Shown here piece after piece: positions 7,815 through 52,454 of a stretch of DNA of 64,000 nucleotides. Source of the DNA: a virus; the IMG/VR virus record IMGVR_UViG_3300027503_000009. One strand, 5' to 3'. Position 1 is the stretch's first letter. Each line of letters opens with the position of its first letter. The notes below the pieces were generated by a model. It made no database searches. It had not been told where the DNA came from and saw only the letters and a list, made by a program, of their open reading frames with translations. The translations under genes were made by a program, and so were the position numbers.

Positions 7815-7840
7815 TAAAATCTCCTAATATATTATATTTA

Positions 7841-8170
7841 TTAAATATTCCAAGGTGCAGGTTTATATACTAATGGTGGATTTTTTAAATTTTCTATTTG
7901 TGCAGCTAGAGAAGCATCATAATTATCTACAACTTCTTGTGTAAGTGAAGAAACTGTCCAAGAAATTAAATCTTGCTTTGTTAGATTGTTATATTCTTTA
8001 AAATCATTTGGATCTGGATCTGACAGATTGATTGAACCGTAGGAATCTACAAAATATTCACCATCTAATGCACCTCTTCTCCATTCATAAGAAACAACTA
8101 CATCTGTCATACTATCTTGAATTGGTTTAACTTTAATTCCATTAAATTGCCATGTATATTCTACTGCCAT
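7841..8170 (-). CDS. small fibre-associated protein (DUF7936-like)
   Basis: YTW...VV...W...Y..LT....ISW...QIE..KNPP...APW pattern commonly found next to phage fibre genes. Confidence 0.55.
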   Translation of the reverse strand: MAVEYTWQFNGIKVKPIQDSMTDVVVSYEWRRGALDGEYFVDSYGSINLSDPDPNDFKEYNNLTKQDLISWTVSSLTQEVVDNYDASLAAQIENLKNPPLVYKPAPWNI

Positions 8171-8184
8171 ATTTATCCTTTAAT

Positions 8185-11100
8185 TTATTTATCAATTGCG
8201 AAGTCATGAACAAAATCCAAACCAAAATGTTCATTTAGAAAACGCATCATTTTTTCCATATCTATCTTTAATCGTTTTCCAGTTCTTGTATCTACAGAAT
8301 CATAAATCCATTCATTAGTTTCTCTGTCGTGTGGTGAAATTAGTGTTGCGTTTCCAGAAGCATCCATAACATAACATTCACCACTAGAAGAGTATATTGA
8401 AATTCCATTTGATAATGTTCCGGCAGGTGCAGTTCCATTAAATATATCTAGATGATTTGTTCCTGTTGTAGTTGCACGTTGATGGGTTCCGCCTATTTTA
8501 ACATTTCCTGAATCATCTATACGCATTCTTTCTGTTGCAGCAGTATATAATTCAACAGTTCCACCAGTACCTTGAAGTTGACCCATACGCAAAGAAGTGT
8601 TATTTCTTATGCTAAATATTCTACCAACATCAGCAGTACTTACGTCTATATAAAGACCAACAGTTGCATCGTCTGGATTATTAAATACTATTTCTCCACC
8701 TTCACCACCAGTTGCCAATTGTGTGGTGACTCCTTTCACATTAAGAGTTGTTGCTAGGGTTGTTGTTCCAATACCGACATTCCCAGAAGAACTGATTCTC
8801 ATTCTTTCAGTAAGAGTATTTGCTGTTGAACCAGTACTTCCTGCTGATGCTGTTTGGAAAATTAACACTCCACTTCCACCAGTACCAGTACCATTACCAG
8901 CAGCAATAGTTAAGTTAGAACCAGCAGCATCTGTTCCTGTTCTAGCTGGACCTCTTAAAGTAGCTGCTGTAGTTGTAGCACTAGCTTCGCCAGAACCAAG
9001 AATAATATCTCCTGTTGAATTAATACGCATTCTTTCGAAAGGAGAACTATTTGCTTTTGTATAAAACAATAATTCTCCACCAGAGAGTGTTCCAGTACTG
9101 TTTTGTATAGCAGTTATTCCAGCAACATTGTAGTGTGCATCGTTTTGACCAAGACTTCTACTAAAAAATATTCCACCCAAAACTGCACCAGATGTATTTA
9201 CGCCACTCACTAAATTTAAGAAAGATTGTGTAGCATCATATATTTGTATTGTTTTTGCAGTAGTTAAAATACCTGTATAAGATGTTGTACCATTAATATA
9301 ATTCGTTCCACCACCTAGATCTAAGATAGTTGCAGGAGCCGATGTTCCAATACCAACATTTCCAGCAGAACTAATGCGGAATCTTTCAGTAAGAGTATTT
9401 GCTGTTGAACCGCTACTTCCGGCAGGTGCAGTTTGAAAAACAAGTGCGCCACTTCCACCAGTACCAGTACCATTACCAGCAGCAATAGTTAAGTTAGAAC
9501 CAGTTAAATTGGTTCCTGTCATGTTTGGTCCTCGAACTAAGTTCGAACTTGCTGATCCGCCACCTTCACCAAAACCTAAAATAATATTACCATTTAGATC
9601 AATTCTCATTCTTTCAGTTAAAGAAGATCCGTTACTAGTATAAAATGATAATGTCCTTGTTATAGCAGGATTTCCTATAGCTGATCCAGATGCAGCAATA
9701 GTTCCAGATCCTGAATTATTAAATCCTATTCCAGCCGATCCACTAGCTATCAAATCTCTAGAAGCTCTCCAGCGAGGATTGACTTCAGTTGAGAAATATT
9801 CTTCAATTTGTGCACCAGAAACTAATTGTATTCTAGTATTATTAAAAGTTCCGGCAACAATAGTACCATTAACTTCTAATTTTACTCCTGGTGAAACTGT
9901 ACCAATACCAACACGATCATTTGTTTGATCTACATATAATGTATTTGTATCTACTGTTAAAGCAGCAGCAGTTAATCTAGTTCCATCAAATGTTAAATTT
10001 GCTGATCCAGCAGTTGTTCCGGATGAATTATATAGAACTTGTGTATTAGAACCACCAATTGGTCCGGTGGCACCTGTAAATCCTGTTGCACCTTGTAATC
10101 CAGTTGCTCCAATGAAACCTGTGGCACCTTGTAATCCAGAACCAGTTGCACCAATGAAACCTGTGGCACCAATGAAACCAGTTGCACCAATAAATCCGGT
10201 AGCTCCAGTGAATCCAGTTGCACCTTGTAATCCAGAACCAGTTGCACCAATGAAACCTGTGGCACCAATGAAACCAGTTGCACCTTGTAATCCAGAACCA
10301 GTTGCACCAATGAAACCTGTGGCACCAATGAAACCAGTTGCACCAATGAAACCTGTGGCACCTTGTAATCCAGAACCAGTTGCACCAATAAATCCGGTAG
10401 CTCCAGTGAATCCAGTTGCACCAATGAATCCGGTAGCTCCAGTGAAACCTGTGGCACCTTGTAATCCAGAACCAGTTGCACCAATGAAACCTGTGGCACC
10501 AATGAATCCGGTAGCTCCAGTGAAACCTGTGGCACCAATGAATCCTGTGGCACCTGTGAATCCAGTAGCACCAATGAATCCTGTCGCACCTGTTAATCCA
10601 GTAACACCATGTAATCCTGTGGCACCCGTAAAACCAGTAGCACCTGTGAATCCAGTAGCACCAATTATTGTTGAACTTGGTGTTCCCGCAGAATTAATAT
10701 CAAATAATTTCCAATTTCCACTATCAAAAATTAAAACAATAACATCATTATCTACAATATAAGTATTATCAATAATAATAAATGATGAACTTTCAACTAA
10801 ATCTGAACCAGATGCTAATATTTTAAATCCAGTTCCTGTAGAATAATCAACAGCGATATATATCGCTGCACTAGTATACCCAGAAGGTAATGTGACTACA
10901 AGATTAGTTGGTGTATTATTACCATAAACAATATATCTTTTATTATATTGTGCTGTAAATGAAGTTGTTTGTTTTACCCAGTTAAAATATTCAGAACCCA
11001 ACGCTGCTGTTGTTTGTATTGTATTGTCTGAAAATTTAATTCCCTGAGATGAAGTAGTTATAAATCCGCCCGTACAAGTTAATCCTTGTTGAGCAGTTAA

Positions 11101-11262
11101 TAATTTATGTGAAGTTAAACCACTAGAATTTGCAGTTGCGATATCTTCAGATGAAATTTCTTCTGTTTCAGCATTAACAATACTTCTAGTTGTTTCTGGT
11201 AAAACATCAGGTTCAACTTCAGGTAAATTTTCTTCTGGATTTACAATATAAATTTCTGACAT
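8185..11262 (-). CDS. fibre protein with Gly-X-Y collagen-like tract and ERMRI...GNVGIGT beta repeats
   Basis: About 200 aa of GAT/GFI/GFT triplets; several ERMRI[10 protein letters not shown] tail-fibre repeats; own late promoter. Confidence 0.85.
8870..9503. repeat. 55 bp exact direct repeat (8870-8924 and 9449-9503) inside a duplicated ~80 aa fibre module
   Basis: ccacttccaccagtaccagtaccattaccagcagcaatagttaagttagaaccag occurs twice, 579 nt apart; encodes [18 protein letters not shown]. Confidence 0.85.
10052..10662 (-). repeat. collagen-like 9/18-nt tandem repeat (GAT-GF[I/T])
   Basis: Direct reading of repeated ccagttgcaccaatgaaa-type units. Confidence 0.9.
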
Positions 11263-11269
11263 ATTTAAT

Positions 11270-11277
11270 TATTTATA
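11270..11277 (-). promoter_or_regulatory. T4-type late promoter TATAAATA
   Basis: Exact match 7 nt before ATG of the 1025 aa fibre gene. Confidence 0.75.
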
Positions 11278-12169
11278 ATAAAAAATCAACCCATTTATCA
11301 ATATGAAATTTCCAATCATAATTTTGTCTAGCATATTCTTGAATATCCAAACATTTATTTTTATATTCTTTCGGATTATCAGCATAATAATTCAATAAAC
11401 TGACAGTTTCTGTTATAAAATAATTTGGGTCAATACTAACAACATGACCACCACCAGCAGGACCATTTTTTTCAAAATAACCAACTGGTGTACTAATACA
11501 TAATTTACCAGCAGCAGCGGCTTCTAACATAGGAAGTCCCGCACCTTCTTCTGTTGAAGCAGTTATAATACAATCAACGCTTTTATAAAAATTAGGCATT
11601 GAAAGATAGTGATAAAAATTATGTTTCTTAAAAGTTAGTCCAGTATATTTAACAGCTTGCTCAACAAGTGCGCCTCTTTTTATTTCTTGTCCAAAAAAGT
11701 TTTGTGTTGAATATGCTCCAGCCATAGCAACTGTGGATAATTTTTCGGAGGGTTTTGAATAAAATCTATCAAAATGAATTCCAAACGGAACAACATGTGA
11801 TTTTACTGGAACACCAAATTCAATAGATTTCTTATCTAATATCTCAGATACAGTTCCATATTTTGCAATTTTATTAAAAATATCTAACCCCATTTGTTGT
11901 CTTGCTAATAAAATATCCCATTGTCCATGAGCAACTGCAATAATTTTTTGTAATGGTATTTGATAATTTAATAAGAAACCAATACCAACTGGAGTTGTAA
12001 CAAAATAATCAGTTGAATCAGAAATTTTTAACATTTCGTCAATTTGATATTGACGTTCCCAATCTAATACTTCAGCATTAATACCAAATCGGTACAATTC
12101 TTTACAAAGTGAATTGTGAATTGTACCAAATGCCCATTTATTTTCTGTAAAAAATATTATATTTCTCAT
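11273..12169 (-). CDS. glycosyltransferase, GT-B fold (GT4-like)
   Basis: C-terminal EX7E motif EGAGLPMLEAAAAG..ISTPVG and terminal YDW helix. Confidence 0.85.
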   Translation of the reverse strand: MRNIIFFTENKWAFGTIHNSLCKELYRFGINAEVLDWERQYQIDEMLKISDSTDYFVTTPVGIGFLLNYQIPLQKIIAVAHGQWDILLARQQMGLDIFNKIAKYGTVSEILDKKSIEFGVPVKSHVVPFGIHFDRFYSKPSEKLSTVAMAGAYSTQNFFGQEIKRGALVEQAVKYTGLTFKKHNFYHYLSMPNFYKSVDCIITASTEEGAGLPMLEAAAAGKLCISTPVGYFEKNGPAGGGHVVSIDPNYFITETVSLLNYYADNPKEYKNKCLDIQEYARQNYDWKFHIDKWVDFLL

Positions 12170-12172
12170 AAT

Positions 12173-12919
12173 TTATTTTCCTAATTCATGAAGAAACTTA
12201 AACCCTTTTTGTCTTAAATAATCAGTGTATTCAAACATCTTAGGAACTCCACCTGTACATCCGATAGCAACTTCATCACAACCTAATTCCCAACCTTTTA
12301 AACTTCCCCACATTTCTTTATTACTTTTTGGATGTGGAGGAACATATGTTCCTAAGTCTGTATATTTTTGTAAAACATATGAAAAGTGCATATCTTCACC
12401 AACAATAAAATTGTGATCTATTGGTGGTAATTCTCTACAAAAAACTGATAATAAATCCCTGTGGAAAAACCAATTATGTCCAACAATATCTACACGTTCT
12501 ACTTGTTCATTATTATTTCCATCCCAACCATAACGATCAGTCATTTGATATTCATAAGAACTATTTGGAAATTTAATTCCAATTGCTCCAAGCAAACCTG
12601 GATGTTTTTCGTATGTATTTAAACAATTTTCAATCCACTGTGTTCCTGGGATTGTATCATCATCTAATATACAAACATAATTTGTTCTAGCATTTAATGC
12701 ATAATAAAATCTAGCCCAAACACCAAAATTAACTGATGCATATGATGATATGCAATAATTGGTTGATGTTTGCATATCATAATGAACATTTGGCATTGAA
12801 TTTTGCCAATAAAAAATATCTTTTACTTTAACTGTTTGTGTTAAAGCTGCATCTACTTGTTTTTTCAAATTTTGAGGTCTTTTATAACCATTCAAAATTA
12901 CAGTAACATCATTATTCAT
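12173..12919 (-). CDS. glycosyltransferase, GT-A fold (GT2/GT64-like)
   Basis: N-terminal VTVILNGYKRP, DXD motif CILDDDTIPG, GEDMHFSY. Confidence 0.8.
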   Translation of the reverse strand: MNNDVTVILNGYKRPQNLKKQVDAALTQTVKVKDIFYWQNSMPNVHYDMQTSTNYCISSYASVNFGVWARFYYALNARTNYVCILDDDTIPGTQWIENCLNTYEKHPGLLGAIGIKFPNSSYEYQMTDRYGWDGNNNEQVERVDIVGHNWFFHRDLLSVFCRELPPIDHNFIVGEDMHFSYVLQKYTDLGTYVPPHPKSNKEMWGSLKGWELGCDEVAIGCTGGVPKMFEYTDYLRQKGFKFLHELGK

Positions 12920-12920
12920 A

Positions 12921-13643
12921 TTATCCCCAATAACAAATCTTTTTATTATCTGAATGATCTAAAATATAGTAACCACGAATATTTAAATCTGATTGTAGCC
13001 AAGGATGTAAAGTTGAACCTATATCTAAATAAGTATTGTTTTTATTTACTTCCCATAATTGTTGTGCTAATATTTTACCCAAAGGACCACAAGCAAATAA
13101 ATATAATTTATTTTCTGTTTTCCAATTTTTTAATTCATCAACTAAATTTATATTTTCAACCCAAGCATTATATTTAACCGGAATAAATGCTTCTCCAGAA
13201 AAAGGTAAATTATTTACTTTAGATTTTTCATTAGCAACTAATATTATATTTCTTTTTTTGAATAGTTCAATGTAATTGTTTATGAAATATTGATAATTTG
13301 AATTCACAAATATATTAGCATAGGTTAAATTTTCATCACTTTGATCTGATAATTTTTTCATATTATTAAAATTATTATATCCTTGACAACAAGGACAAAC
13401 TATACCAACATAATAATTAGGATCTTTATAGGTGAAAGATTTATGTAATAAATTTCTAGCTAAATCATATCTATCATCAAAACCATTTGTAGACCATTCA
13501 CCATAACCAGAAGAAATACATTCTCCTCTCATAGCAATCATTTCACCATCACCAAATCTAGCTAAAGAAAAATTTTTATTTGACTGTAACATCCATAAAA
13601 ATTTTTGTATTTCTTCTTTAAAATTTTTCACAACATACTCCAT
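12921..13643 (-). CDS. GT-D fold glycosyltransferase (DUF1792-like)
   Basis: Signature SLARFGDGE near N-terminus, ACGPLGKIL and YLDIGS near C-terminus. Confidence 0.8.
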   Translation of the reverse strand: MEYVVKNFKEEIQKFLWMLQSNKNFSLARFGDGEMIAMRGECISSGYGEWSTNGFDDRYDLARNLLHKSFTYKDPNYYVGIVCPCCQGYNNFNNMKKLSDQSDENLTYANIFVNSNYQYFINNYIELFKKRNIILVANEKSKVNNLPFSGEAFIPVKYNAWVENINLVDELKNWKTENKLYLFACGPLGKILAQQLWEVNKNNTYLDIGSTLHPWLQSDLNIRGYYILDHSDNKKICYWG

Positions 13644-13644
13644 A

Positions 13645-14211
13645 TTATTTTTTAATTATTAAAATACCAACATTTAATCCATCAAACCAAGGTGCACCTG
13701 AACCAATAATTCTATTTTCATAATTTTTATATGATATTTTTTGTCTTAAATAATCTTCAATATTATTTAATTGTAGTCCAGGAATATCAAATGTTATAAT
13801 AACATATCCATCTTTTTTAACTTGTTTTATCAGATTAGATAAATGATGTACATGATCACCGGGAATTTCCTCTAGTGCAGAAACATTTAAAATAACATCA
13901 AAAGATTCTTTGAAGTTATCATCTGGTTCTTTTGTTATATCATGTATACAAGTGTTATCTATTCTACTATAAAGAATGTCAGAATTAGTAACATATTCTC
14001 GACCAAACTTTTTTTCTAATTCATTCTTAAATCTCTGATGATGTTCTAAATCAAATCCCCAAGAAGAATTATGAATTTTTGGATTATTTGGTAATTCCAA
14101 ATTGTTTAAAATATTTAATAATGTTGGATATTCATACTTTCTAGACCAATGTGGATAAGTATCATCAAAAACATCATTTTTATTTACATATCTAAAATCA
14201 ATTATTTTCAT
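13645..14211 (-). CDS. class I SAM-dependent methyltransferase-like protein
   Basis: WSRKYEYP, FDVILNVSALEEI, VKKDGYVIITFD motifs; motif I is degenerate. Confidence 0.6.
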   Translation of the reverse strand: MKIIDFRYVNKNDVFDDTYPHWSRKYEYPTLLNILNNLELPNNPKIHNSSWGFDLEHHQRFKNELEKKFGREYVTNSDILYSRIDNTCIHDITKEPDDNFKESFDVILNVSALEEIPGDHVHHLSNLIKQVKKDGYVIITFDIPGLQLNNIEDYLRQKISYKNYENRIIGSGAPWFDGLNVGILIIKK

Positions 14212-14842
14212 ATAAATTTATTTCTGGATAATGTGAACTAATTTTATTAGTTTCTGGTCCATCATAGTATTTTTCAATTGGTTTACCTAAAATACTAACA
14301 AACGGATCAGATTCAAGATATATTGGCCTATATGTTTCTTTAGGAAAATCTAAATCTATATTAACTACTTTTTCAGAAAAAGAAGTTATAAAACTATATT
14401 TTGATTTTTCTTTTGTTAAGGATACACTTTCTGTCGCATACTGTAAAGGAAGATGTTCTAGTGTATGTCTGATTATTATTAAATCAAATTTATAATCTAT
14501 ATTTTTTAAATATGTATTCATATCAGAACATATAAATTTTATATTATCTTTAGAATAATTTTTATTATTGTAATCTATAGCTTCTTGTACGCAGTCTAAT
14601 CCAATATAATTAGGAAGACTGTCTGAAATAGTTCTCATCCAATTCCAATCTCCACAAGAACAATCTAATATTGTATTGATATTTTTTTCTGAAATAAATT
14701 TTAAAAGTATACTTTTAAAATTGGAAGTCCATTCTAATGTACTACCTAATCCAGATCTAGATTCATTTTGTCCCATATACCAACTAAAATCTTTATATAT
14801 AGTTGTGAAAGTTTCATTTATATTATCAATAAGTTTTTCCAT
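14198..14842 (-). CDS. class I SAM-dependent methyltransferase
   Basis: ESRSGLGS, ILDCSCGDWNWM (motif I), YIGLD, FDLIIIRHTLEHL. Confidence 0.8.
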   Translation of the reverse strand: MEKLIDNINETFTTIYKDFSWYMGQNESRSGLGSTLEWTSNFKSILLKFISEKNINTILDCSCGDWNWMRTISDSLPNYIGLDCVQEAIDYNNKNYSKDNIKFICSDMNTYLKNIDYKFDLIIIRHTLEHLPLQYATESVSLTKEKSKYSFITSFSEKVVNIDLDFPKETYRPIYLESDPFVSILGKPIEKYYDGPETNKISSHYPEINLYENN

Positions 14843-14848
14843 AAAAAA

Positions 14849-16003
14849 TTAATTAATCCCTTTTGGATAATATCTATTTAGCCATTCCAAATCAGTTCTT
14901 TCTGTATGTCTTTGATACCATCCGTCATTAGTATAAACATCCCAAACCATTTGAAAATATTCTTCATACATTTTTCCAACTCTATCTAAGGTGAAATTAT
15001 TCATAGCCCAATCATAACAATTTTTAGGATTGATTTTATCAATATTTTCAGCAGCCCAACAGAAATGATCAAATGTACGACAACGATAACCAGTTACACC
15101 ATGTAGATTATTTTCTGCATGTGAACCCCAATCAGTTGTTATAATCGGACAACCAGCAAATAATGCTTCAATTGAAGCACCACCAAAAGGTTCATTGTAC
15201 ATTGAAGGTAAAAAGAATCCTTTTGCTTTAGACAACATTTCTTTTCGTTGTTCTGAATTTAAATAACCAACTTTTTCTATTTGTCCAGGAATTTCTTTAT
15301 AACCATATTCTTCTAAAGAACCTTGACCAGCAATTTTTAATTTAAGTCCCAATTTCTGACAAACTTGATATGCAATGTCAATTCCTTTTCCTGGATAAAC
15401 TCTACCCATGAATAGGAAATAATCATCTTTTTCTTGTGAAAATGTAAATTCTTCGGGATCAAAATAATTAGGAATTACTGAATGATACCAATCTTCTTGA
15501 CAATTGGTGACTGAATTTGGTCCTCCAACCGCTGATCTTATTGCATAAGATTCAAAAATTCTATACTTAGCAAAATGACCAGTTCCATAACCAATTCCGG
15601 GTTCAACAACAATCATATCGGGATGTGCATCACAAACTGGTTTATGTCCTAATCCCCAGAAGGGCAAAATAAAATCTAAAGGTTGTTTGCGTTTTTGAAT
15701 TTCTCTGATAGTATTAGTATAAAATGTTCTGTAAGCGTGATCACCCATATCAAACTTAAAGAAGTTCTTACGCCAATCGTAATTACCGTAAGCAATTTCT
15801 AGATCTTTATTTGTTGTAACTGTGACATGTTCATCACAAATTAAATTAGAATCTTCATGACCATAATGAATAATATGATGGCCTCTAGCCTTCATCATTT
15901 TTCCAAATTTGAGAACCTTCTGCGTATAAGCACAACCCGTGTATTCTGAATTAGTTACAGTATGAGGAAGCCCCAAAATGTGAAATCTGTATTTTTGACT
16001 CAT
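14849..16003 (-). CDS. glycosyltransferase, GT-B fold (GT4-like)
   Basis: FLFMGRVYPGKG, EX7E motif EPFGGASIEALFAGCPIITTDWG; start moved to ATG 16003 (GGAGA SD upstream). Confidence 0.88.
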   Translation of the reverse strand: MSQKYRFHILGLPHTVTNSEYTGCAYTQKVLKFGKMMKARGHHIIHYGHEDSNLICDEHVTVTTNKDLEIAYGNYDWRKNFFKFDMGDHAYRTFYTNTIREIQKRKQPLDFILPFWGLGHKPVCDAHPDMIVVEPGIGYGTGHFAKYRIFESYAIRSAVGGPNSVTNCQEDWYHSVIPNYFDPEEFTFSQEKDDYFLFMGRVYPGKGIDIAYQVCQKLGLKLKIAGQGSLEEYGYKEIPGQIEKVGYLNSEQRKEMLSKAKGFFLPSMYNEPFGGASIEALFAGCPIITTDWGSHAENNLHGVTGYRCRTFDHFCWAAENIDKINPKNCYDWAMNNFTLDRVGKMYEEYFQMVWDVYTNDGWYQRHTERTDLEWLNRYYPKGIN

Positions 16004-16038
16004 TATATTTTCTCCATTCAACTATTATAAGTTAAACA

Positions 16039-16046
16039 TATTTATA
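16039..16046 (-). promoter_or_regulatory. T4-type late promoter TATAAATA heading the glycosylation cassette
   Basis: Exact match immediately upstream of the first GT of six tightly packed enzyme genes. Confidence 0.8.
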
Positions 16047-18323
16047 TTACAAATAAGAATAGTATGTTGGTCCGCCCCCGCCTCCACTAGCCAATGAAAC
16101 ATCAAAAGTATTTCCTGCAACTTGCTCAACAGATACTCCCTTATATGTAGAAGATTCATATGCAAAAACGAAGACTGGAATTGTATTATCATACCAAGTC
16201 ATTGAATATGATCCATTCCCTGTTCTTGAAGTAGATGCTATTTTTTCACCATTATCTGTTCTATAAGCTTCAATATTAACTGTACCACCATTTGATCCTG
16301 ATATTGTTCCAGATATAGTGTATGATATAGTATGATAAGTTAAATTCGTATTCATAAAATTACCAATATTTAATACAAATTTTTGATTATAATAGATTCT
16401 ATTGTCTTGTCCTAATGCAAATCTAGGTTGTCTTATATCTGTTGGGTATTGTTTCCAAAAGTTTGTAGTATTATACCATGAATATATAGTTCCCGCCTCA
16501 GCATCTGAGTTATAATAATTTATATCTACCAAAGTTCTCAATGCAGTTGAATTTGTACCATCTTGTAAAAGACCAAGAGTAGTTATATAAAATGGAAATT
16601 GTGATACAGTAGATCCAGTAATTGTATATAAGTCTAAGCCACTATTAGTTAAAAAATAATTCGTTTCTGGTATATCTTCACGGACAGTACCAAGAGACGA
16701 TCCAAATGGAGATACTGGTGTAAATGTAGAACTTAAAGTACTGGTAGATATTGAGTTACTATAATCTATAGTAGTAAATTTTACTGTATGATTATGAGCA
16801 CCATCACCATCAGAATGTTTCCCGCTAGTGTAATTTAAAAATACTACACCAGTAACTGAGTCTGTACCAACTGACGGTTTAGCTTCAATTATTAATGTAT
16901 TTAATCCTCTCGATAAAGTTATACCAGCAGTAGAACCTGTTTCACCAGAATCAATTCTTCTTCCTATAACAAAAGAACCGACTCTATTACCACCACCTGC
17001 ATGTGTATAAGTTCTATCTGCTTGTGAACCGACTGCCATAACTAATGATAAGGCTGCACCATCCATTGTTGACATTAATAAACCAGATTGAACTAATGAA
17101 ATTGTTGTTGGTTCTTGAATAAAGAAATCAACTACAAAATTATTTCCAATAAGTCCAGATCGGCCAGATGTCGATTCTGAACTACCAAAAGGAATTTCTA
17201 AACTGTTAATTATACTGGTACTCGATGAATGATCATACTCATATGTTACAACTAAAACACCACACATACAAGGCATAGTGATTGATGTCACGTTACTTAC
17301 TCTGGCAGTAATAGAACTAGTTGCATTTGTTGCTAATATAGATGTAATTTCATCTATTCTCTTAAAAGATCTATCTGTAGATAATGCCATATTATAAGCA
17401 AGACTTGCGGCATCAGTTCCACTAAATGTTAATGTACATGTTGCGTTGGTTGTGTTTCCTGTACCAGTATTGCCCATATGACTATATGATTCAAAAAATA
17501 TGTTTCTAAAAGTTTTAGAAGCTTCTGGTAAAAATGTACTTAGATTTGGAACTTGATTTGCGGCACCAATATTTGATGCAGTAGTTGTTAAATTTCCAGT
17601 ATTACCATCAATTGGTATTTTTACTGTTTTAATTCTGGTTGTTGTCGCAACACTATCTTCATATTCATAAGTTATAACAATTTTTGCACTAGTGTTATTT
17701 GTAGCTAATCCAGTTAAATTGATTCTAGCTGTACTAGCCATAGTTGTGGCGTTAGCTGTCCAATTTTGATTAAAATAATTTCTAAAATCACATATAAACG
17801 TCCAAGATTGGTGTTCTCCTGAATTAGTTAGTACACTTGTATTAGAAAAAGTACCAATTGCTATAGCACCCAATGTTAAACCTAAAGTAACATCAGTGAC
17901 ATTTGCGGCGGTGGCGGCATTATCTACTGAACTAACTTCAAGAAAAGCATTTTTAAATACTATATCATAAATTGTGCAGTTTATATCTGTCGTTGAATTT
18001 GTTAATGTAGAAGTCGCTCCATCAAAAGAAGCACTTACAGTAATAGTTGTAGTTGAAGGAACAGATTTAACCCAATATGTCGTTCCTGATGTTAATCCAC
18101 CGCCAGTAGATGAAGGAACTAATCTATTGCCAATTCTCAAACCATGATCTGTCGTGAATGTTATTATATTACCTGTAGCTGATGTTGAATCAATTGTTTT
18201 TGACACACCTATATTTTCAGGAATATACAAATTTATTGACGTGAAATCTCTATTATTTCCTGAAGCGACGGAAGTGTTTGAAAATGGATATGCAAATTCT
18301 ACTGTTTTTTGTCTTGTAGCCAT
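16047..18323 (-). CDS. S/T-rich beta-rich putative virion/fibre-associated protein
   Basis: 758 aa; inserted HGL..G...GTTYWV small beta module near N-terminus, Ig/carboxypeptidase-regulatory-like C-terminus; in late fibre operon. Confidence 0.55.
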   Translation of the reverse strand: MATRQKTVEFAYPFSNTSVASGNNRDFTSINLYIPENIGVSKTIDSTSATGNIITFTTDHGLRIGNRLVPSSTGGGLTSGTTYWVKSVPSTTTITVSASFDGATSTLTNSTTDINCTIYDIVFKNAFLEVSSVDNAATAANVTDVTLGLTLGAIAIGTFSNTSVLTNSGEHQSWTFICDFRNYFNQNWTANATTMASTARINLTGLATNNTSAKIVITYEYEDSVATTTRIKTVKIPIDGNTGNLTTTASNIGAANQVPNLSTFLPEASKTFRNIFFESYSHMGNTGTGNTTNATCTLTFSGTDAASLAYNMALSTDRSFKRIDEITSILATNATSSITARVSNVTSITMPCMCGVLVVTYEYDHSSSTSIINSLEIPFGSSESTSGRSGLIGNNFVVDFFIQEPTTISLVQSGLLMSTMDGAALSLVMAVGSQADRTYTHAGGGNRVGSFVIGRRIDSGETGSTAGITLSRGLNTLIIEAKPSVGTDSVTGVVFLNYTSGKHSDGDGAHNHTVKFTTIDYSNSISTSTLSSTFTPVSPFGSSLGTVREDIPETNYFLTNSGLDLYTITGSTVSQFPFYITTLGLLQDGTNSTALRTLVDINYYNSDAEAGTIYSWYNTTNFWKQYPTDIRQPRFALGQDNRIYYNQKFVLNIGNFMNTNLTYHTISYTISGTISGSNGGTVNIEAYRTDNGEKIASTSRTGNGSYSMTWYDNTIPVFVFAYESSTYKGVSVEQVAGNTFDVSLASGGGGGPTYYSYL

Positions 18324-18325
18324 AA

Positions 18326-18505
18326 TTAACTCGATATATCTCTTCTTTTAACTCTTATTTGAAATAATTCATTTGTTCCATTATAATCAACTATTATTTT
18401 CCATTCTTCATCATATAAGAAACCTCTCCAAACACAATAACCAGTTCTATCTGCTACTGCCAAATCTATACATTCTGCTATTTTATTTGCTAATGGTGAA
18501 CTCAT
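18326..18505 (-). CDS. hypothetical protein, 59 aa (below ORF-track cutoff)
   Basis: Hand-translated MSSPLANKIAECIDLAVADRTGYCVWRGFLYDEEWKIIVDYNGTNELFQIRVKRRDISS; fills the gap between neighbours with 3 and 2 nt spacing. Confidence 0.7.
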   Translation of the reverse strand: MSSPLANKIAECIDLAVADRTGYCVWRGFLYDEEWKIIVDYNGTNELFQIRVKRRDISS

Positions 18506-18508
18506 ATA

Positions 18509-21500
18509 TTACTCCGAAATTAAAAATGCGTTCCAATCTGCTGCACCATTTACAGATGTGATATCTATTCTTAATAGATCTCCAGCAGTTAAACCTGAAT
18601 TCGTAAATGAAGTAGTTGTTACTACGTTATTACCAGTAGTTAAAGTTATAGTAACAACAGTTGTTGGGAAAGTTGAACCATTATTCGATGATTTTAGAAT
18701 TGATACTACAAAAGACCCGCCTGTAGGAGCAGTTTTTGCTGTCAGTATTGCATTAGTTGCTGTTGAAGTGTATGGAACATACAAATATGGTGTAACGCTA
18801 TTTGCAATAGTTGGTGTTCCACTTCCACCAAAAGTGAAAGTGGATTTAGTTAATCCTGTAGCTCCAGTGAAACCAGTTGCTCCAGTGAATCCAGTGGCCC
18901 CAATAAATCCAGTAGCACCAATGAAACCTGTAGCTCCAGTAAATCCAGTAGAGCCTATGAATCCTGTGTCACCTTGTAATCCAGTTGCACCTATAAATCC
19001 AGTAGCACCAATGAAACCTGTAGCACCAATAAATCCAGTAGCACCAATGAAACCAGTTGCTCCTTGTAAACCAGAACCCGTCGCACCTATAAATCCAGTG
19101 GCACCAATGAAACCAGTTGCTCCAGTAAATCCAGTAGAGCCTATGAATCCTGTGTCACCTTGTAATCCAGTTGCACCTATAAATCCAGTAGCACCAATGA
19201 AACCTGTAGCTCCAGTAAATCCAGTAGAACCAATGAAACCAGTTGCTCCTTGTAAACCAGAACCCGTCGCACCTATAAATCCAGTAGCACCAATGAATCC
19301 AGTTGAACCTGTAAATCCTGTCGCACCTGTGAATCCAGTTGCACCTATAAATCCAGTAGCACCTATAAATCCAGTAGCACCAATAAAACCTGTAGATCCT
19401 TGTAATCCAGTTGCACCAATGAAACCAGTTGCTCCAGTAAATCCTGTGGCTCCAATGAATCCTGTAGATCCAATGAATCCAGTTGCACCTATAAATCCAG
19501 TAGCACCTATGAATCCAGTAGCACCTATAAATCCAGTAGCACCAATAAAACCTGTAGAGCCTATGAATCCAGTAGCACCAATAAAACCTGTAGATCCTTG
19601 TAATCCAGTTGCACCAATGAAACCAGTTGCACCTATAAATCCAGTAGCACCAATGAATCCTGTGTCACCTTGTAATCCAGTTGCACCTATAAATCCAGTA
19701 GCACCAATAAAACCTGTAGATCCGTGTAATCCTGTAGCACCAATAAAACCTGTAGCACCAATGAATCCTGTGGCTCCTGTGAACCCTGTTGATCCTATAA
19801 ATCCTGTGGCTCCTATGAAACCAGTTGATCCTATAAATCCTGTAGCTCCAATTAATCCAGTTGCACCAGTCAATCCAGTTGCACCTTGGAATCCAGTTAC
19901 TGCTGAAATTACAGATAAGAATAATTCATGATTATCTGTAAAATTCGAAGAACCACCGCTTGCAATTAATGTTACTGTAAAATCATAATATGCCGTAGAA
20001 GTTCCTATATTATTTCCAGTAACAGCAGTGATTTCCCAAGTTTGATAATTTTCGCTTACATTGCGATCTTGAATAATAAATCTTTGAGTCGATTTTAATA
20101 GACCCAAAATAATTTCAATATCTGTTAAATCGCTAGTTAAATGTGAAATATATATGTGTGTTGAACTAGTTTGGGTAGAGTTATTCCAAACAATAAATCC
20201 ATCACCAGGATATGCATTTGATTGAGTACTCGTCTCAGCAAGATAATAAAATAAACTTGTACTTTGTCCAGCGGGGCCAGTAAGACCAGTAGCACCTATG
20301 AAACCTGTAGATCCTTGTAAACCAGAACCTGTAGCACCAGTAAGTCCTGTCACCCCTGTAGCACCAGTGAAACCTGTGGCTCCAGCGAAACCTGTAGCAC
20401 CAGTAAGTCCTGTCACCCCTGTGGCTCCAGTGAAACCTGTGGCTCCAGTGAAACCTGTGGCTCCAGTGAAACCTGTGGCTCCAGTAAGACCAGTTAAACC
20501 AGTAGAACCGATAAATCCAGTTGAACCAGTTAAACCAGTAGAACCGATAAATCCAGTTGAACCAGTTAAACCAGTAGCACCAATGAAACCTGTAGCGCCA
20601 ATGAAACCAGTTGCACCTATAAATCCAGTTAAACCAGTAGCACCAATTAAACCTGTAGCGCCAATAAAACCAGTTGCACCTATAAATCCAGTAGATCCAG
20701 TTAAACCAGTAGAACCGATAAATCCAGTTAAACCAGTTGAACCTTGGAAACCTGTAGATCCCTGTAATCCAGTAGATCCAGTTAAACCAGTAGAACCGAT
20801 AAATCCAGTTAAACCAGTTGAACCTTGGAAACCTGTAGATCCCTGTAATCCAGTAGATCCAGTAAATCCTATACCTGTAGCACCAATAAATCCTACACCA
20901 GTAGCACCTTGATAGCCAGTAACACCTTGTAGTCCTGTTGCACCAGTAAATCCAGTAATACCTTGTGGTCCTGTTGCACCAGTAAATCCAGTAGCTCCAT
21001 CCGAACCAACATAACCTGGAGTTCCAGTAGCACCTTGATACCCAATAACACCTTGTGGTCCTGTTGCACCAGTGAATCCAGTAGCACCAATTGGACCTGT
21101 ATCACCAATATCACCAGTTCTTGCAAATGATATTACTATTTCAGTATTTCCAGATAAATTATCCATTGATCCAGAAATATATGATGATGGGACGTTAAAA
21201 TAACTATCACCATGAGTATGCGTTCCTGTTATAGCAAATAATGCATAACTAGCAGGATTGACCTTTTCTGATATTGTAAAATGGCCTTTAATTAATGATG
21301 TTGAATCATCAATTGATTGTAGGAAATTATAAACCGAAACAGAATTAGCATCTGTTTGGTTAATATACATTTCAGTAACTGAAAAGAAGTTTAAATTATT
21401 AAATCTTAATTTCCCTGATCCTGGATTACCAATGATAGTAAAATCATCGTAAATGTAATCAAAAGATGCACCACCAAAAGATCCTGCTGGTCCTTGCGCT

Positions 21501-21841
21501 CCTGTCGCTCCAATTAATCCAGTTGCACCAGTAAATCCAGTAGCCCCCTGAAATCCAGTTGCACCATCTGAACCAACATAACCTGGAGTTCCAGTAGCAC
21601 CAGTAAATCCAGTAACACCTTGTGGTCCTGTTGCACCAGTGAATCCAATACCTGTTGCACCTATGAAACCTGTAGCACCCTGATAAGGATTATTTATTTG
21701 AATAACATTATTGTTATGATCTTTAGTGTAAAGAATTCTATCATTTAAATTTAAAGCTAATTCACCAATTTCTAATTGTAAATTAGTTGGTATTTTTCCA
21801 GGTTCAATACTTCTTTTTATTTTTATGATGTTTGATGGCAT
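18509..21841 (-). CDS. collagen-like fibre protein with Mtd_N-like N-terminal attachment domain
   Basis: N-terminal IKIKRS..PGKIP...L..GELALN..DR.LY; three Gly-X-Y tracts separated by two related globular domains; C-terminal beta-sandwich (L.AGD.LRIDI). Confidence 0.85.
18851..19894 (-). repeat. collagen-like tandem repeat tract 3 ([15 protein letters not shown])
   Basis: Direct reading; higher-order duplications visible. Confidence 0.9.
20265..21115 (-). repeat. collagen-like tandem repeat tract 2
   Basis: Direct reading; includes an 81 nt unit duplicated in tandem around 20690-20850. Confidence 0.88.
21482..21679 (-). repeat. collagen-like tandem repeat tract 1
   Basis: Direct reading of Gly-X-Y triplets. 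Confidence 0.85.
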
Positions 21842-21864: not shown

Positions 21865-21872
21865 TATTTATA
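21865..21872 (-). promoter_or_regulatory. T4-type late promoter TATAAATA
   Basis: Exact match upstream of the 1110 aa collagen-like gene. Confidence 0.78.
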
Positions 21873-21881: not shown

Positions 21882-22067
21882 TTACTTTTCTATATCAGAT
21901 ATTTTTTTACCAGTTACAAAAGTTGCTAATGCTGTAGAAAATGTTCTAAAAACGTCATTTCCCTCTGGGACTTTACAAAACATCATTATAATACCTAGTA
22001 AAGTAAAAAATGAAAATATAAAAATAATTGAACCTGATAAAGATAAAGTTTCCAATCTTCTTCCCAT
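21882..22067 (-). CDS. small membrane protein (holin-like topology)
   Basis: 61 aa; one strong hydrophobic segment, second amphipathic segment, charged C-tail; start overlaps gp15 stop. Confidence 0.5.
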   Translation of the reverse strand: MGRRLETLSLSGSIIFIFSFFTLLGIIMMFCKVPEGNDVFRTFSTALATFVTGKKISDIEK

Positions 22068-23050
22068 TAATAAGAACCCCCATCTATAACTAAATTATTT
22101 AATTCATTTGAAGATATCCATTTTTGTGTTGATAAATTATAAATTAAAACTGATCCATCATATAAATTTACAGTATCAACATCAAACAAATCATCTAATT
22201 TTAGATAAGTAACAACGCCTCCACCACCTCCACCCGAAGGACTAGTAGCACCACTTTCTGATGGTGGATTAGTTATAATTGTTGATGAATTATAATCATC
22301 AACAATAAATGTTTCTATTAATGTGTAATTATCATTTACACCAGCATTTGAGGGATTAACCTCAACACTATAATATTGTTTACCACCAGCACCTTCAACT
22401 GTGGTATCTACAATTGTATTTACAATTGCTTTTTTAATAATCTTACTATCTTTTACTGGTGGATATAAATTTGATTCAACGGTAAATTTTAAATCCCAAA
22501 TTAAAACTCTTCTATCCTCTACAGTTCCTTCATAATTATCTTGAGGATTTACGCTTTTTAATATAATAGGAATATCTTTTGAGATACCCATTGTATTATC
22601 TTCAATAATAGATATTGTGAATTGTGGTGTAAAATAAGGAACAATTTGTTCTAATATCATTAAACCATCATCCATATTTTTTGACATGATCCAAAGATCA
22701 AATGAAAAATCATATGGAACTGGATTATATTGAGATATTATATTATCTCTATTATCTGAACTTTTAAAGTTTTGATTTACAGTAGGTAATTTTCTACCTG
22801 ATGCATATTGTAAACCAGATAGTTCAAATCCCATTCTAGGAAGTGAAATTTCTGTTTGTCTGTTAGCTTCAGCATCTTGTTCTAATCTCGTTAACCATTT
22901 TTGTTTTGGTCCATAAGATAAAGGTACACGAATATCTTTAACTAAACTTCCAGAATTATCTTTTCTCTGGACGTGTAAGTTATTAAATAAAGTTCCAAAA
23001 ACTGAAACTAAACGTTTAATGTGTTCGTTATACCAAGTTTGTCCTAACAT
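22067..23050 (-). CDS. gp15: tail sheath stabiliser/terminator with C-terminal extension
   Basis: FGTLFNN, VPLSYGPKQKW, LPRMGFE, EQIVPYFTP motifs. Confidence 0.93.
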   Translation of the reverse strand: MLGQTWYNEHIKRLVSVFGTLFNNLHVQRKDNSGSLVKDIRVPLSYGPKQKWLTRLEQDAEANRQTEISLPRMGFELSGLQYASGRKLPTVNQNFKSSDNRDNIISQYNPVPYDFSFDLWIMSKNMDDGLMILEQIVPYFTPQFTISIIEDNTMGISKDIPIILKSVNPQDNYEGTVEDRRVLIWDLKFTVESNLYPPVKDSKIIKKAIVNTIVDTTVEGAGGKQYYSVEVNPSNAGVNDNYTLIETFIVDDYNSSTIITNPPSESGATSPSGGGGGGVVTYLKLDDLFDVDTVNLYDGSVLIYNLSTQKWISSNELNNLVIDGGSY

Positions 23051-43798: not shown

Positions 43799-43806
43799 TA
43801 TTTATA
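43799..43806 (-). promoter_or_regulatory. T4-type late promoter TATAAATA
   Basis: Exact match 8 nt before gp48 ATG, overlapping first base of divergent gp4. Confidence 0.75.
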
Positions 43807-51087: not shown

Positions 51088-51377
51088 ATAGGTAATTGAT
51101 TAATCTTTTTCAATAAATGTAAATCCATACCCTCATTATATAAATGACCTCTAATACTAGAATTTAATAATTGAGGAACATGTTCAATTGGTAAATCATG
51201 TTTTTCACAAAAGAAAACAATAGATTCCAGATAAGTTAATTTTTTTTCTTGTACTAGTTTTTCAATATTAGTACAAAAATAATTTTGTTTATGTCTAATA
51301 TTTTGATCTACTTGTACTTCAATTTCTTCTTCATCTTTAATTAATTCATCTTCTTCAAATAATTCATAGTTTTCCAT
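51084..51377 (-). CDS. gp33: late transcription co-activator
   Basis: F...IE.LV.....YLESIV.FCE.....E....L, ending LPI; adjacent to gp59. Confidence 0.82.
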   Translation of the reverse strand: MENYELFEEDELIKDEEEIEVQVDQNIRHKQNYFCTNIEKLVQEKKLTYLESIVFFCEKHDLPIEHVPQLLNSSIRGHLYNEGMDLHLLKKINQLPI

Positions 51378-52437: not shown

Positions 52438-52454
52438 AACAACTCCATTACTCA

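What the first reader, a model, noticed from the sequence alone, without database searches (positions are those of the whole stretch)
8185..21841. Candidate phage-encoded virion glycosylation system: 4 glycosyltransferases + 2 methyltransferases bracketed by Thr-rich collagen fibres
Seen: six tightly packed genes (GT-B, SAM-MTase, SAM-MTase-like, GT-D, GT-A, GT-B; 11273-16003) are headed by an exact TATAAATA late promoter and lie between two fibre genes whose Gly-X-Y tracts are dominated by Gly-Ala-Thr/Gly-Ser-Thr, giving well over 100 Thr sites with little Pro. Known: Gly-X-Thr collagen-like spore proteins (Bacillus BclA, C. difficile BclA3) are O-glycosylated by enzymes encoded nearby; some mycobacteriophages glycosylate virion proteins with their own GTs; T-even DNA glucosyltransferases sit among non-structural genes and are different families. 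Inference: a complete pathway that initiates, extends and methylates a glycan on collagen fibres, stabilising a Pro-poor triple helix and/or giving the virion a glycan coat for adhesion, shielding or host-surface mimicry. No nucleotide-sugar synthesis genes are visible, so donors would be host-derived. I know of no characterised example in a T4-like phage.
Basis: partly seen in the sequence, partly recalled or inferred. Interest (0 to 1): 0.92.

Follow-up and report, generated by a model that had tools for sequence, protein, structure and literature searches.

The report
Phage collagen-fibre glycosylation gene cassette
An uncultured T4-like aquatic phage carries six sugar-adding and methylating enzymes between two threonine-rich collagen-like fibre genes. 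One of these enzymes belongs to a family that sits next to such collagen genes in many bacteria and phages, so the phage probably sugar-coats its own fibres, though no chemistry has been done.

Summary
Between neck gene gp15 and terminase gp17 of a T4-like myovirus lie two Gly-X-Thr collagen fibre genes, a 758-aa unknown gene and six packed soluble enzymes: GT4, SAM-MTase, MTase-fold protein, GT-D, GT-A, GT4. They sit behind a well-placed TATAAATA late promoter.

Thr-rich collagen is the norm in these phages whether or not a GT is nearby. The GT-D/GT-A pair also occurs in complete phage genomes that have no collagen gene.

The core idea gains new support. The first GT4 (phrog_3408 family) has a Thr-rich collagen gene within 3 kb in 49 of 95 dereplicated family members. 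These include about 27 of 33 mostly Bacillota species (one neighbour carries a BclA_C domain), Saccharibacteria, a Planctomycetota MAG, and three cultured cyanophage lineages, one at only 30% identity. Among 21 phage genomes checked, the GT and collagen co-occur (9/0/1/11).

The two GT4s form a conserved phage pair. The methylase/GT-D/GT-A block is a variable insert between them. No ThyA-type hydroxymethylase was found in relatives, and no membrane enzymes are present.

Best reading (about 0.6): late-expressed O-glycosylation of collagen fibres. No chemistry exists. The scan has noted this theme on many other genomes.

The parts
21865..21872 (-). TATAAATA late-promoter motif 24 nt upstream of COL1
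18509..21841 (-). COL1, a 1110-aa collagen-like fibre with about 221 Gly-X-Y triplets; Y is Thr in 62% and Pro is almost absent
   Evidence: Pfam Collagen E 1e-92; PHROG tail fibre families
16047..18323 (-). p758, a Ser/Thr-rich protein of unknown function; probably structural and an alternative acceptor
   Evidence: No Pfam or PHROG hit. More than 384 metagenomic homologues of about 650-680 aa. None in cultured phages.
16039..16046 (-). TATAAATA late-promoter motif, next to the p758 stop codon and 36 nt upstream of the cassette's ATG
14849..16003 (-). GTB390, a GT4 retaining-type GT-B glycosyltransferase (phrog_3408 family) and the candidate collagen-Thr glycosyltransferase. ATG at 16003; an upstream TTG at 16021 is also open.
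14198..14842 (-). 214-aa class I SAM-dependent methyltransferase with motif I ILDCSCG
13645..14211 (-). 188-aa protein with a methyltransferase fold; the glycine-rich SAM loop is replaced by IHNSSWG, so activity is uncertain
12921..13643 (-). GT-D fold glycosyltransferase (DUF1792 type) with an invariant D32-G-E34
12173..12919 (-). GT-A (GT2-like) glycosyltransferase with a DDD motif; the near-constant partner of the GT-D gene in phages
11273..12169 (-). GTB298, a compact GT4-like GT-B glycosyltransferase (phrog_18799) and the conserved phage partner of GTB390
11270..11277 (-). TATAAATA motif overlapping the GTB298 stop codon, only 8 nt before the COL2 ATG
8185..11262 (-). COL2, a 1025-aa fibre: N-terminal domain, Gly-Ala-Thr/Gly-Phe-Ile collagen tract, then a 600-aa C-terminal region with tail-fibre homology
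   Evidence: phrog_9942, 18345 and 819 outside the collagen tract
7164..8170 (-). Two small genes that close the island before TerL: a 109-aa DUF7936 protein and a 216-aa unknown in the position of gp16
22067..23050 (-). gp15 tail sheath stabiliser, the upstream boundary of the island
5532..7157 (-). gp17 large terminase, the downstream boundary of the island

Best explanation
The island is a late-expressed module that decorates fibres.

Shown:
- Six soluble enzymes with intact catalytic motifs are transcribed with the virion genes.
- They lie between collagen-like fibre genes in the gp15-gp17 variable region of a T4-like myovirus.

Inferred:
- In the cytoplasm, GTB390 transfers a sugar from a host UDP-sugar to Thr hydroxyls in the Y position of Gly-X-Thr triplets of COL1 and COL2, before or during trimerisation. 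GTB390 is a retaining-type GT4 whose family is coupled to Thr-rich collagen genes across bacteria and phages.
- Its conserved partner GTB298 adds or primes a further sugar.
- The inserted block (GT-D, GT-A, one or two methyltransferases) extends and O-methylates the chain.
- The middle of the cassette differs between close relatives in the way O-antigen loci differ, with other methylases, nucleotidyltransferases and epimerases. Related phages would therefore carry different glycans.
- The result would be fibres with a glycan coat, which could stabilise a Pro-poor triple helix and alter adhesion, shielding or receptor contact.
For: 1. Context. The order is gp13-gp14-gp15 | island | gp17-gp18-gp19-gp20. 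TATAAATA placement is non-random, and one copy heads the cassette.

2. Enzymes. No enzyme has a membrane segment, and the motifs are intact.

3. GTB390 family in cellular genomes. A Thr-rich ORF that hits Pfam Collagen lies 82-312 nt upstream on the same strand in about 27 of 33 mostly Bacillota species. One such neighbour carries a BclA_C domain. The same adjacency is seen in Planctomycetota, Bacteroidota, Saccharibacteria and Proteobacteria MAGs.

4. Family tree. 49 of 95 informative dereplicated members have Thr-collagen within 3 kb, in every major clade except Nocardia.

5. Cultured phages.
- S-CBWM1: a collagen-like tail fibre gene is followed directly by a GT only 30% identical to GTB390.
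- S-CAM7 and ACG-2014f: the collagen gene, the GT and a P4H-type 2OG oxygenase lie within a few genes of each other, followed by a tail fibre gene.

6. Genome-level co-occurrence of GTB390 and collagen: 9 +/+, 11 -/-, 1 collagen only, 0 GT only among complete records. Fisher p = 3e-5, or 0.005 when collapsed to lineages.

7. Metagenomic phages. 8 of 44 dereplicated groups have collagen within 1.5 kb, against about 6.7% expected (p = 0.008). 8 of the 10 collagen ORFs found within 10 kb are directly adjacent.

8. The GT4 pair. GTB390 lies within 5.4 kb of GTB298 in 56 of 69 loci and often abuts it.
Against: - There is no chemical evidence anywhere in this family.
- Close relatives have the same cassette at the same site with no collagen gene within 10 kb (L017, L088, L137).
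- In long relatives the collagen genes can be 28-70 kb from GTB390.
- P-SSM2 has collagen fibres without this GT.
- The GT-D/GT-A pair occurs in complete or near-complete phage genomes with no collagen.
- The nearest solved relatives of GTB390 glycosylate small molecules: glucosylsucrose synthase and tetrahydrobiopterin glucosyltransferase.
- The gp15-gp18 region is a known hot spot that collects both fibre genes and accessory genes, which inflates adjacency within phages (PMC7029224).
- The genome-level test is small, and its genomes were chosen through the genes tested.
Confidence: 0.6

Rival explanations
1. Host envelope remodelling. The enzymes act on the host's lipid-linked O-antigen, LPS or capsule intermediates during infection, for example to block superinfection or re-adsorption. 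This is the published reading for glycosyltransferases in the host-recognition cluster of pelagimyophages and cyanomyophages.
For: - PMC7029224 proposes this for GTs among tail fibre genes in such phages.
- GT4, GT2, FkbM and CmcI methyltransferases, nucleotidyltransferases and epimerases in relatives' cassettes are typical of O-antigen loci.
- The GT-D/GT-A cassette exists in phages without collagen.
Against: - No membrane protein, flippase, polymerase, ligase or priming phosphotransferase is present, and all six enzymes are predicted soluble.
- The cassette has a late promoter inside the virion module, which is late for superinfection exclusion.
- This reading does not explain why the GTB390 family abuts collagen genes in chromosomes of many bacterial phyla.
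Confidence: 0.15
2. Virion glycosylation, but of a protein other than the collagen tracts, for example p758, non-collagen domains of the fibres, or capsid or tail proteins as in mycobacteriophages.
For: - p758 is Ser/Thr-rich and sits directly upstream of the cassette.
- Relatives keep the cassette without a local collagen gene.
- Mycobacteriophages glycosylate capsid and tail tube C-termini (Freeman et al. 2023, as cited in PMC12619734).
Against: - p758 has no homologue in any relative that holds the cassette.
- The cross-phylum partner of GTB390 is specifically a collagen-like ORF.
Confidence: 0.12
3. Synthesis of a small-molecule glycoside or a free oligosaccharide as an auxiliary metabolic function, for example a methylated compatible solute.
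For: - The closest solved relatives of GTB390 are glucosylsucrose synthase (E 1e-18) and tetrahydrobiopterin glucosyltransferases.
- The Nocardia clade of the family has no collagen neighbour.
Against: - The cassette lies in the structural module under a late promoter.
- The family's collagen adjacency is widespread.
- Four different GTs plus methylases argue for a heteroglycan rather than a solute.
Confidence: 0.06
4. DNA hypermodification: the enzymes glycosylate hydroxylated or hydroxymethylated pyrimidines in phage DNA.
For: GT-B enzymes with the same structural neighbours (7FG9, BGluT, BshA, sucrose-phosphate synthase) are the named or proposed DNA glycosyltransferases of RB69, DLP3 and Pootjesviridae (PMC13326640).
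Against: - No ThyA/dCMP-hydroxymethylase family gene was found in 10 relatives' records, including complete genomes G007 and G009, which carry only the GT-D/GT-A part.
- None, and no TET or DNA methylase, is among the window ORFs scanned.
- The cassette sits among late structural genes, not with nucleotide metabolism genes.
- Sugar methylation is not known to me for DNA glycans.
Confidence: 0.03

Closest known systems
Bacillus anthracis BclA and Clostridioides difficile BclA3 with SgtA (exosporium collagen-like glycoproteins)
   Same: - Gly-X-Thr collagen repeats are O-glycosylated on Thr by an enzyme encoded next to the collagen gene. SgtA adds beta-O-GlcNAc to Thr of collagen-region peptides in vitro (PMC7157674).
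- BclA glycans end in a methylated sugar (title of PMC6222408, and own knowledge).
- Bacillota relatives of GTB390 sit directly after BclA-like genes, one of which carries a BclA_C domain.
   Different: - SgtA is GT-A plus TPR. GTB390 is a GT4 GT-B protein, so it is not a homologue.
- The window's fibres have no BclA_C domain.
- Here the acceptor would be a virus particle, not a spore.
Mycobacteriophage virion glycosylation (Freeman et al. 2023, Cell Host Microbe; cited in PMC12619734)
   Same: Phage-encoded soluble glycosyltransferases decorate the phage's own virion proteins in the host cytoplasm.
   Different: - The acceptors there are C-termini of capsid and tail tube subunits, not collagen fibres.
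- The host is Gram-positive-like, the enzymes are of other families, and no methylases are involved.
- That case is shown by mass spectrometry. This one is inferred.
Giant-virus autonomous glycosylation: chlorovirus PBCV-1 capsid glycans and mimivirus fibrils (PMC4691112 and PMC9614988 listed; details from own knowledge)
   Same: - Virus-encoded cytoplasmic GTs and methyltransferases build methylated glycans on virion proteins.
- Mimivirus also encodes collagen-like proteins and a collagen-modifying enzyme.
   Different: - These are eukaryotic viruses with different enzyme families.
- Mimivirus collagen modification is on hydroxylysine, not Thr.
Streptococcal serine-rich repeat adhesin (Fap1) glycosylation with the GT-D enzyme dGT1 (DUF1792; PDB 5v4a)
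   Same: A GT-D fold enzyme with a DXE motif extends an O-glycan on a repetitive Ser/Thr-rich protein. The window's GT-D passes the Pfam cut-off and keeps D-G-E.
   Different: - The sequence match to the solved GT-D is not significant (E 0.56).
- The phage GT-D travels with a GT-A and often a UDP-GlcNAc 2-epimerase, mostly without collagen or SRR genes nearby.
Glycosyltransferases in the host-recognition cluster of pelagimyophages and cyanomyophages (Zaragoza-Solas et al. 2020, PMC7029224)
   Same: The same kind of locus: a hypervariable block in T4-like aquatic phages that mixes tail fibre or collagen-repeat proteins with several GTs.
   Different: That paper assigns the GTs to host O-chain modification. 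The collagen link of the GT4 family was not described there.

Membership tests
GT4 / Glycos_transf_1 retaining GT-B glycosyltransferases (GTB390, GTB298) | Pfam Glycos_transf_1 match over the curated cut-off | tested here: met
   66.1 bits (GTB390) and 32.5 bits (GTB298) against a cut-off of 26.4
GT4 / Glycos_transf_1 retaining GT-B glycosyltransferases (GTB390, GTB298) | E-x7-E motif in the C-terminal Rossmann domain, conserved in homologues | tested here: met
   E271/E279 are invariant in A3 and E208/E216 are invariant in A4
GT4 / Glycos_transf_1 retaining GT-B glycosyltransferases (GTB390, GTB298) | Two-Rossmann-domain GT-B fold or a solved GT4 relative | tested here: met
   GTB390 matches 7fg9 at E 1e-18 by sequence. 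The GTB298 model (pLDDT 88.5) matches BshA and PimA with TM 0.73-0.76.
GT-D fold glycosyltransferases (DUF1792) | Pfam GT-D match over the cut-off and a metal-binding DXE motif | tested here: met
   PF08759 scores 30.2 bits against 27. D32-G-E34 is invariant in 6 homologues. The sequence match to solved 5v4a is not significant.
GT-A / GT2 glycosyltransferases | Pfam Glycos_transf_2 match over the cut-off and a DXD motif | tested here: met
   27.2 bits against 23.3; DDD at residue 86
Class I SAM-dependent methyltransferases | Rossmann-like MTase fold with the glycine-rich motif I that binds SAM | tested here: inconclusive
   The 214-aa protein meets both features. The 188-aa protein has the fold, but motif I reads IHNSSWG in all 10 homologues, so SAM binding is unproven.
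BclA-type collagen glycoprotein systems | Gly-X-Thr collagen repeats with a glycosyltransferase gene encoded alongside | tested here: met
BclA-type collagen glycoprotein systems | BclA C-terminal (C1q/TNF-like) domain on the collagen protein | tested here: not met
   COL1 and COL2 hit only Collagen in Pfam. BclA_C was found only in one Bacillota neighbour of a GTB390 relative.
BclA-type collagen glycoprotein systems | O-glycan shown chemically on Thr of the repeats | not testable with these tools
   Needs glycoproteomics
SgtA-type collagen O-GlcNAc transferase | GT-A catalytic domain fused to TPR repeats | tested here: not met
   SgtA architecture is given in PMC7157674. GTB390 is GT-B. The window's GT-A is 248 aa with no TPR hit.
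T4-type late transcription unit | TATAAATA a short distance upstream of the start codon on the coding strand | tested here: met
   The motif ends 36 nt before the cassette's ATG. 10 of 13 motifs in the window are so placed. Transcription itself was not tested.
Phage DNA glycosylation systems | Thymidylate-synthase-family pyrimidine hydroxymethylase or hydroxylase (or TET plus C5-methylase) that makes the acceptor base | tested here: not met
   PF00303 is absent from 10 relatives' records, two of them at least 94% complete. None was found among the window ORFs scanned. The rest of this phage's genome was not available.
Gtr-type or Wzx/Wzy-type host O-antigen modification | Integral membrane flippase, bactoprenol-linked GT or polymerase | tested here: not met
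   The highest 19-residue hydropathy among the six enzymes is 1.42, so there is no membrane segment

The most novel reading that the evidence does not exclude
The phrog_3408 GT4 family is an old, dedicated collagen-threonine O-glycosyltransferase. It is shared by BclA-like spore-surface proteins of Bacillota, by collagen proteins of several other bacterial phyla, and by the fibres of aquatic myoviruses. In phages it works with a fixed partner GT4 and a swappable block of extending and methylating enzymes. Related phages would then wear different methylated glycan coats on their fibres, a virion counterpart of O-antigen diversity.
Probability: 0.45. Interest if true: 0.8.

Novelty: new variant of a known kind. 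Interest (0 to 1): 0.62.

Why it matters
Virion glycosylation by phage-encoded enzymes has been shown only for mycobacteriophages. For T4-like aquatic phages, the glycosyltransferases among fibre genes have been read as host O-antigen modifiers.

If the fibres are the acceptors, three things follow:
- Abundant marine and freshwater phages carry a variable glycan layer on their host-contact organelles. This bears on adsorption, host range, grazing and aggregation, and on how fibre genes are annotated.
- An uncharacterised GT4 family would be identified as the likely modifier of BclA-like collagen proteins in many spore formers.
- There is a simple two-gene test system: a collagen gene plus its GT.

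Tried and rejected
- Megablast of 24 kb of the window against cultured phages found nothing. The portal protein is only about 54% identical to cyanophage portals, so the host is unknown.
- A single-protein scan for the GT-D gene found no relatives. An alignment was needed.
- tblastn with a collagen tract was masked by the low-complexity filter.
- PDB sequence searches for GT-D, GT-A and GTB298 gave nothing significant.
- The Foldseek neighbours of GTB298 are generic GT4 enzymes and say nothing about the acceptor.
- Sigma-70 promoter and terminator scans were at chance level or uninformative.
- I considered Thr-richness as evidence for glycosylation and rejected it.
- I considered GT-D as independent evidence for a protein acceptor and rejected it as specific to collagen.
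- I considered homology of GTB390 to SgtA and rejected it.
- No whole genome is held for this window.
Pfam-annotated contexts, habitat and expression could therefore not be obtained.
Full report
**What is there**

The window is the structural and replication region of a T4-like myovirus with about 30% G+C. PHROG and Pfam scans identify the following:
- portal gp20, sheath gp18, large terminase gp17;
- neck proteins gp13 and gp14, and sheath stabiliser gp15;
- baseplate proteins gp6, gp5, gp48, gp53 and gp25-like;
- gp32, gp59, RegA, clamp and clamp loader.

The portal is only about 54% identical to cyanophage portals, and nothing matches at the DNA level. This is an uncultured lineage of unknown host.

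A 15-kb island lies between gp15 (22067-23050) and gp17 (5532-7157), all on the minus strand. In order of transcription it holds:
- COL1 (1110 aa);
- a 758-aa unknown protein (p758);
- six tightly packed enzyme genes;
- COL2 (1025 aa);
- a DUF7936 protein and a 216-aa unknown protein.

Pfam places the six enzymes as GT4 (GTB390), SAM-methyltransferase, no hit, GT-D, GT-A and GT4 (GTB298), each over its curated cut-off. The unassigned 188-aa protein folds with high confidence (pLDDT 92) as a class I methyltransferase. Its glycine-rich loop reads IHNSSWG in all ten homologues, so whether it is active is open. Catalytic motifs of the other five are intact.

The collagen tracts hold at least 176 Thr and 8 Pro. 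Thr fills 62-63% of Y positions. COL2 carries tail-fibre homology outside the collagen tract.

TATAAATA occurs 13 times in the window, which equals chance. Ten of the 13 lie within 80 nt upstream of a start codon on the same strand (binomial 1e-12). The motif therefore behaves as a T4-type late promoter. One copy ends 36 nt before the cassette's ATG, and others precede COL1 and COL2.

None of the six enzymes has a membrane segment. Among the ORFs scanned, the window holds no sugar-nucleotide synthesis gene, no pyrimidine hydroxymethylase, no TET-like oxygenase and no DNA methylase.

The cassette recurs at the same place, after gp13-gp14-gp15 and before TerL, in a clade of metagenomic phages. 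Its ends are fixed: GTB390 at the 5' end and GT-D, GT-A and GTB298 at the 3' end. The middle differs from phage to phage. It holds other methyltransferases (Methyltransf_24, CmcI-like, FkbM), nucleotidyltransferases, a HAD-nucleotidyltransferase fusion, a UDP-GlcNAc 2-epimerase, an extra GT2 and even a RuBisCO-like protein.

Some of these relatives have a collagen gene beside the cassette (L003, L006, L015, L102, L008-L010). Others have none within 10 kb (L017, L088, L137). Bracketing by two fibres is therefore peculiar to this phage.

The GT-D/GT-A pair, usually with an Epimerase_2 gene between them, is a widespread phage module. The pair occurs in 72 of 78 loci. It is next to collagen in only 4 of 58 dereplicated groups. 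It also occurs in complete or nearly complete phage genomes that have no collagen gene at all (G007, G008, G009).

Thr in the Y position (0.34-0.69) is the rule for collagen-like proteins in these phages, including genes 28-70 kb from any of these GTs. The Thr-rich, Pro-poor composition is therefore not evidence for glycosylation.

GT-B enzymes whose best structural matches are the same proteins (7FG9, tetrahydrobiopterin glucosyltransferase, BshA) are the named or proposed DNA glycosyltransferases of RB69, DLP3 and Pootjesviridae (PMC13326640).

**What the relatives show: new support for the core idea**

The leading enzyme, GTB390, belongs to phrog_3408 (E 1e-161). I searched one genome per prokaryotic species with an alignment of the family (A3). 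This returned 140 relatives, and I examined the best 80.
- In about 27 of 33 species of a clade that is almost all Bacillota, an ORF with Gly-Ala/Pro-Thr repeats ends 82-312 nt upstream of the GT on the same strand.
- Pfam confirms these neighbours as Collagen (E 1e-17 to 1e-38). One carries the BclA C-terminal domain.
- They are chromosomal two-gene units flanked by what look like housekeeping genes.
- The same adjacency appears in MAGs of Planctomycetota, Bacteroidota, Competibacteraceae and Saccharibacteria, and more loosely in Aquaspirillum and Stellaceae.
- Only the Nocardia clade lacks it.

On a tree of 118 dereplicated family members, 49 of 95 informative rows have a Thr-rich collagen ORF within 3 kb. 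The trait is present in every major clade except Nocardia. Collagen-like genes are few per bacterial genome (own knowledge), so this is far beyond chance. Each locus comes from a different species.

Among cultured phages, only three lineages carry the family.
- ACG-2014f: collagen gene, two small genes, GT, a P4H-type 2OG oxygenase (PF13640), a small gene, then a tail fibre gene.
- S-CAM7: the same pattern.
- S-CBWM1, which is not a member of Kyanoviridae: a collagen-like tail fibre gene is followed directly by a GT only 30% identical to GTB390, at the end of the baseplate and fibre module.

Genome-level co-occurrence was as follows:
- GT and collagen both present: the window, ACG-2014f, S-CAM7, S-CBWM1, G002-G005 and G010.
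- Both absent: Syn9, P-SSM3, S-RIM8, S-H25, S-RIM50, S-PM2, HTVC008M and G006-G009.
- Collagen without the GT: P-SSM2.
- GT without collagen: no complete genome.

Fisher's test gives p = 3e-5, or 0.005 after collapsing to lineages. The sample is small, and the genomes were reached through the genes being tested.

In metagenomic phages, 8 of 44 dereplicated GTB390 groups have collagen within 1.5 kb. About 6.7% is expected from collagen density in long contigs (p = 0.008). Of the ten collagen ORFs found within 10 kb, eight are directly adjacent.

**Architecture of the cassette**

GTB298 (phrog_18799) is a complete GT-B protein of the GT4 type. In 56 of 69 viral loci GTB390 lies within 5.4 kb of it, and often directly abuts it.

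The two GT4s are thus a conserved phage pair. In the window's clade, the methyltransferase/GT-D/GT-A block is an insert between them. This fits a model with a fixed acceptor-directed core and a swappable glycan-extending part.

**Mechanism proposed**

Shown: soluble enzymes, intact motifs, a late promoter, a position among fibre genes, and the family-wide linkage of GTB390 to Thr-rich collagen.

Inferred:
- GTB390 transfers a sugar from a host UDP-sugar to Y-position Thr of COL1 and COL2 in the cytoplasm. Its nearest solved relatives use UDP-glucose and retain configuration.
- GTB298, GT-D and GT-A extend the chain.
- The 214-aa methyltransferase, and perhaps the 188-aa protein, O-methylate it.

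The order of steps, the sugars and the sites are unknown. Possible benefits are stabilisation of a Pro-poor triple helix and a variable surface coat. Glycosylated Thr does stabilise the Riftia cuticle collagen helix (own knowledge).

**Rivals**

- Host O-antigen or capsule remodelling is the published view for such genes (PMC7029224). It remains possible, above all for the GT-D/GT-A block. It fits poorly with the lack of any membrane component, with late expression, and with the collagen linkage in bacterial chromosomes.
- Glycosylation of another virion protein, such as p758, cannot be excluded. However, p758 is absent from every relative that has the cassette.
- A small-molecule product is suggested only by the solved relatives and by the Nocardia clade.
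- DNA glycosylation is unlikely. No ThyA-family gene exists in ten relatives' records, including complete genomes, and the cassette sits apart from nucleotide metabolism genes.

**Comparison with what is known, and novelty**

In function the closest systems are these:
- BclA and BclA3-SgtA, where Thr of Gly-X-Thr repeats is O-glycosylated by a neighbouring enzyme (PMC7157674);
- mycobacteriophage virion glycosylation;
- giant-virus autonomous glycosylation.

GTB390 is not a homologue of SgtA, which is GT-A plus TPR. My literature searches found no description of this GT4 family as collagen-linked, and none of virion glycosylation in T4-like phages.

Earlier notes of this scan record the same theme on many other genomes, mostly with other enzyme families. 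Those notes are leads, not evidence.

I class this as a new variant of a known kind. It is credible from comparative genomics and untested at the bench.

**Limits**

- The rest of this phage's genome was not available.
- The tree is a FastTree with several long branches.
- ORFs in loci were called mechanically.
- Adjacency within phages is partly confounded by the hypervariable region, which collects both fibre genes and accessory genes.

Noticed in passing
L017:11629-12819 (also L014, L011): A RuBisCO large-chain-like protein (PF00016, E 3e-34) sits inside the glycan cassette of a close relative, next to a CmcI-like methyltransferase and a nucleotidyltransferase. This is an odd place for a RuBisCO-like protein and may point to an unusual sugar pathway.
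   Followed up: no
L082-L159, e.g. L133:8269-10720, L126:7600-10723: GT-A, UDP-GlcNAc 2-epimerase-like and GT-D genes form a conserved trio in many unrelated viral contigs. They are often accompanied by FkbM methyltransferases, an NAD-dependent epimerase/dehydratase and a HAD-nucleotidyltransferase fusion. The trio also occurs in complete phage genomes that have no collagen gene. Its acceptor is unknown.
   Followed up: partly
window 16047-18323: The 758-aa Ser/Thr-rich protein belongs to a large family with no Pfam domain among the best 56 hits (more than 384 metagenomic homologues, mostly 650-680 aa). Among phage records it is seen only in a 735-kb uncultured phage (LR756501). It is absent from all relatives that share the cassette.
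   Followed up: partly
window 7164-7814: No recognisable small terminase (gp16). A 216-aa protein with no Pfam or PHROG hit occupies the slot directly upstream of TerL. Relatives have 125-128-aa ORFs there.
   Followed up: no
window 11262-11277: The TATAAATA before COL2 ends only 8 nt from the annotated ATG. That leaves no room for a leader with a ribosome-binding site, so either the start codon or the promoter assignment is doubtful.
   Followed up: no
L194-L227 (mostly Bacillota MAGs), e.g. L218:6602-9152, L227:7062-9182: These are two-gene chromosomal units: a collagen-like protein, in three of the units read with a Cys-rich N-terminus, followed by a GT4 gene. They are probably spore-surface glycoproteins. 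Many contigs begin inside the collagen gene, so assemblies break at the repeats.
   Followed up: partly
L001:11279-11872 (ACG-2014f gp019) and L176:11815-12411 (S-CAM7 gp018): In two cultured cyanophages a 2OG-Fe(II) oxygenase gene lies next to, or one gene from, the GT, within a few genes of the collagen gene. The ACG-2014f enzyme is of the prolyl-4-hydroxylase type (PF13640). Their collagens have more Pro (X = Pro 21% in ACG-2014f). Hydroxylation plus glycosylation is possible there.
   Followed up: partly
window 43806-44240 and 58641-59144: A TnsA-like endonuclease ORF lies beside the baseplate genes, and an HNH endonuclease ORF lies further on. Both are likely mobile or homing elements.
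   Followed up: no
window 51364-52464 and 54992-58060: An IMP dehydrogenase/GMP reductase-family gene, and an AAA_5 (CbbQ-like) ATPase next to a 704-aa phrog_459 protein. These are auxiliary genes among the replication genes.
   Followed up: no
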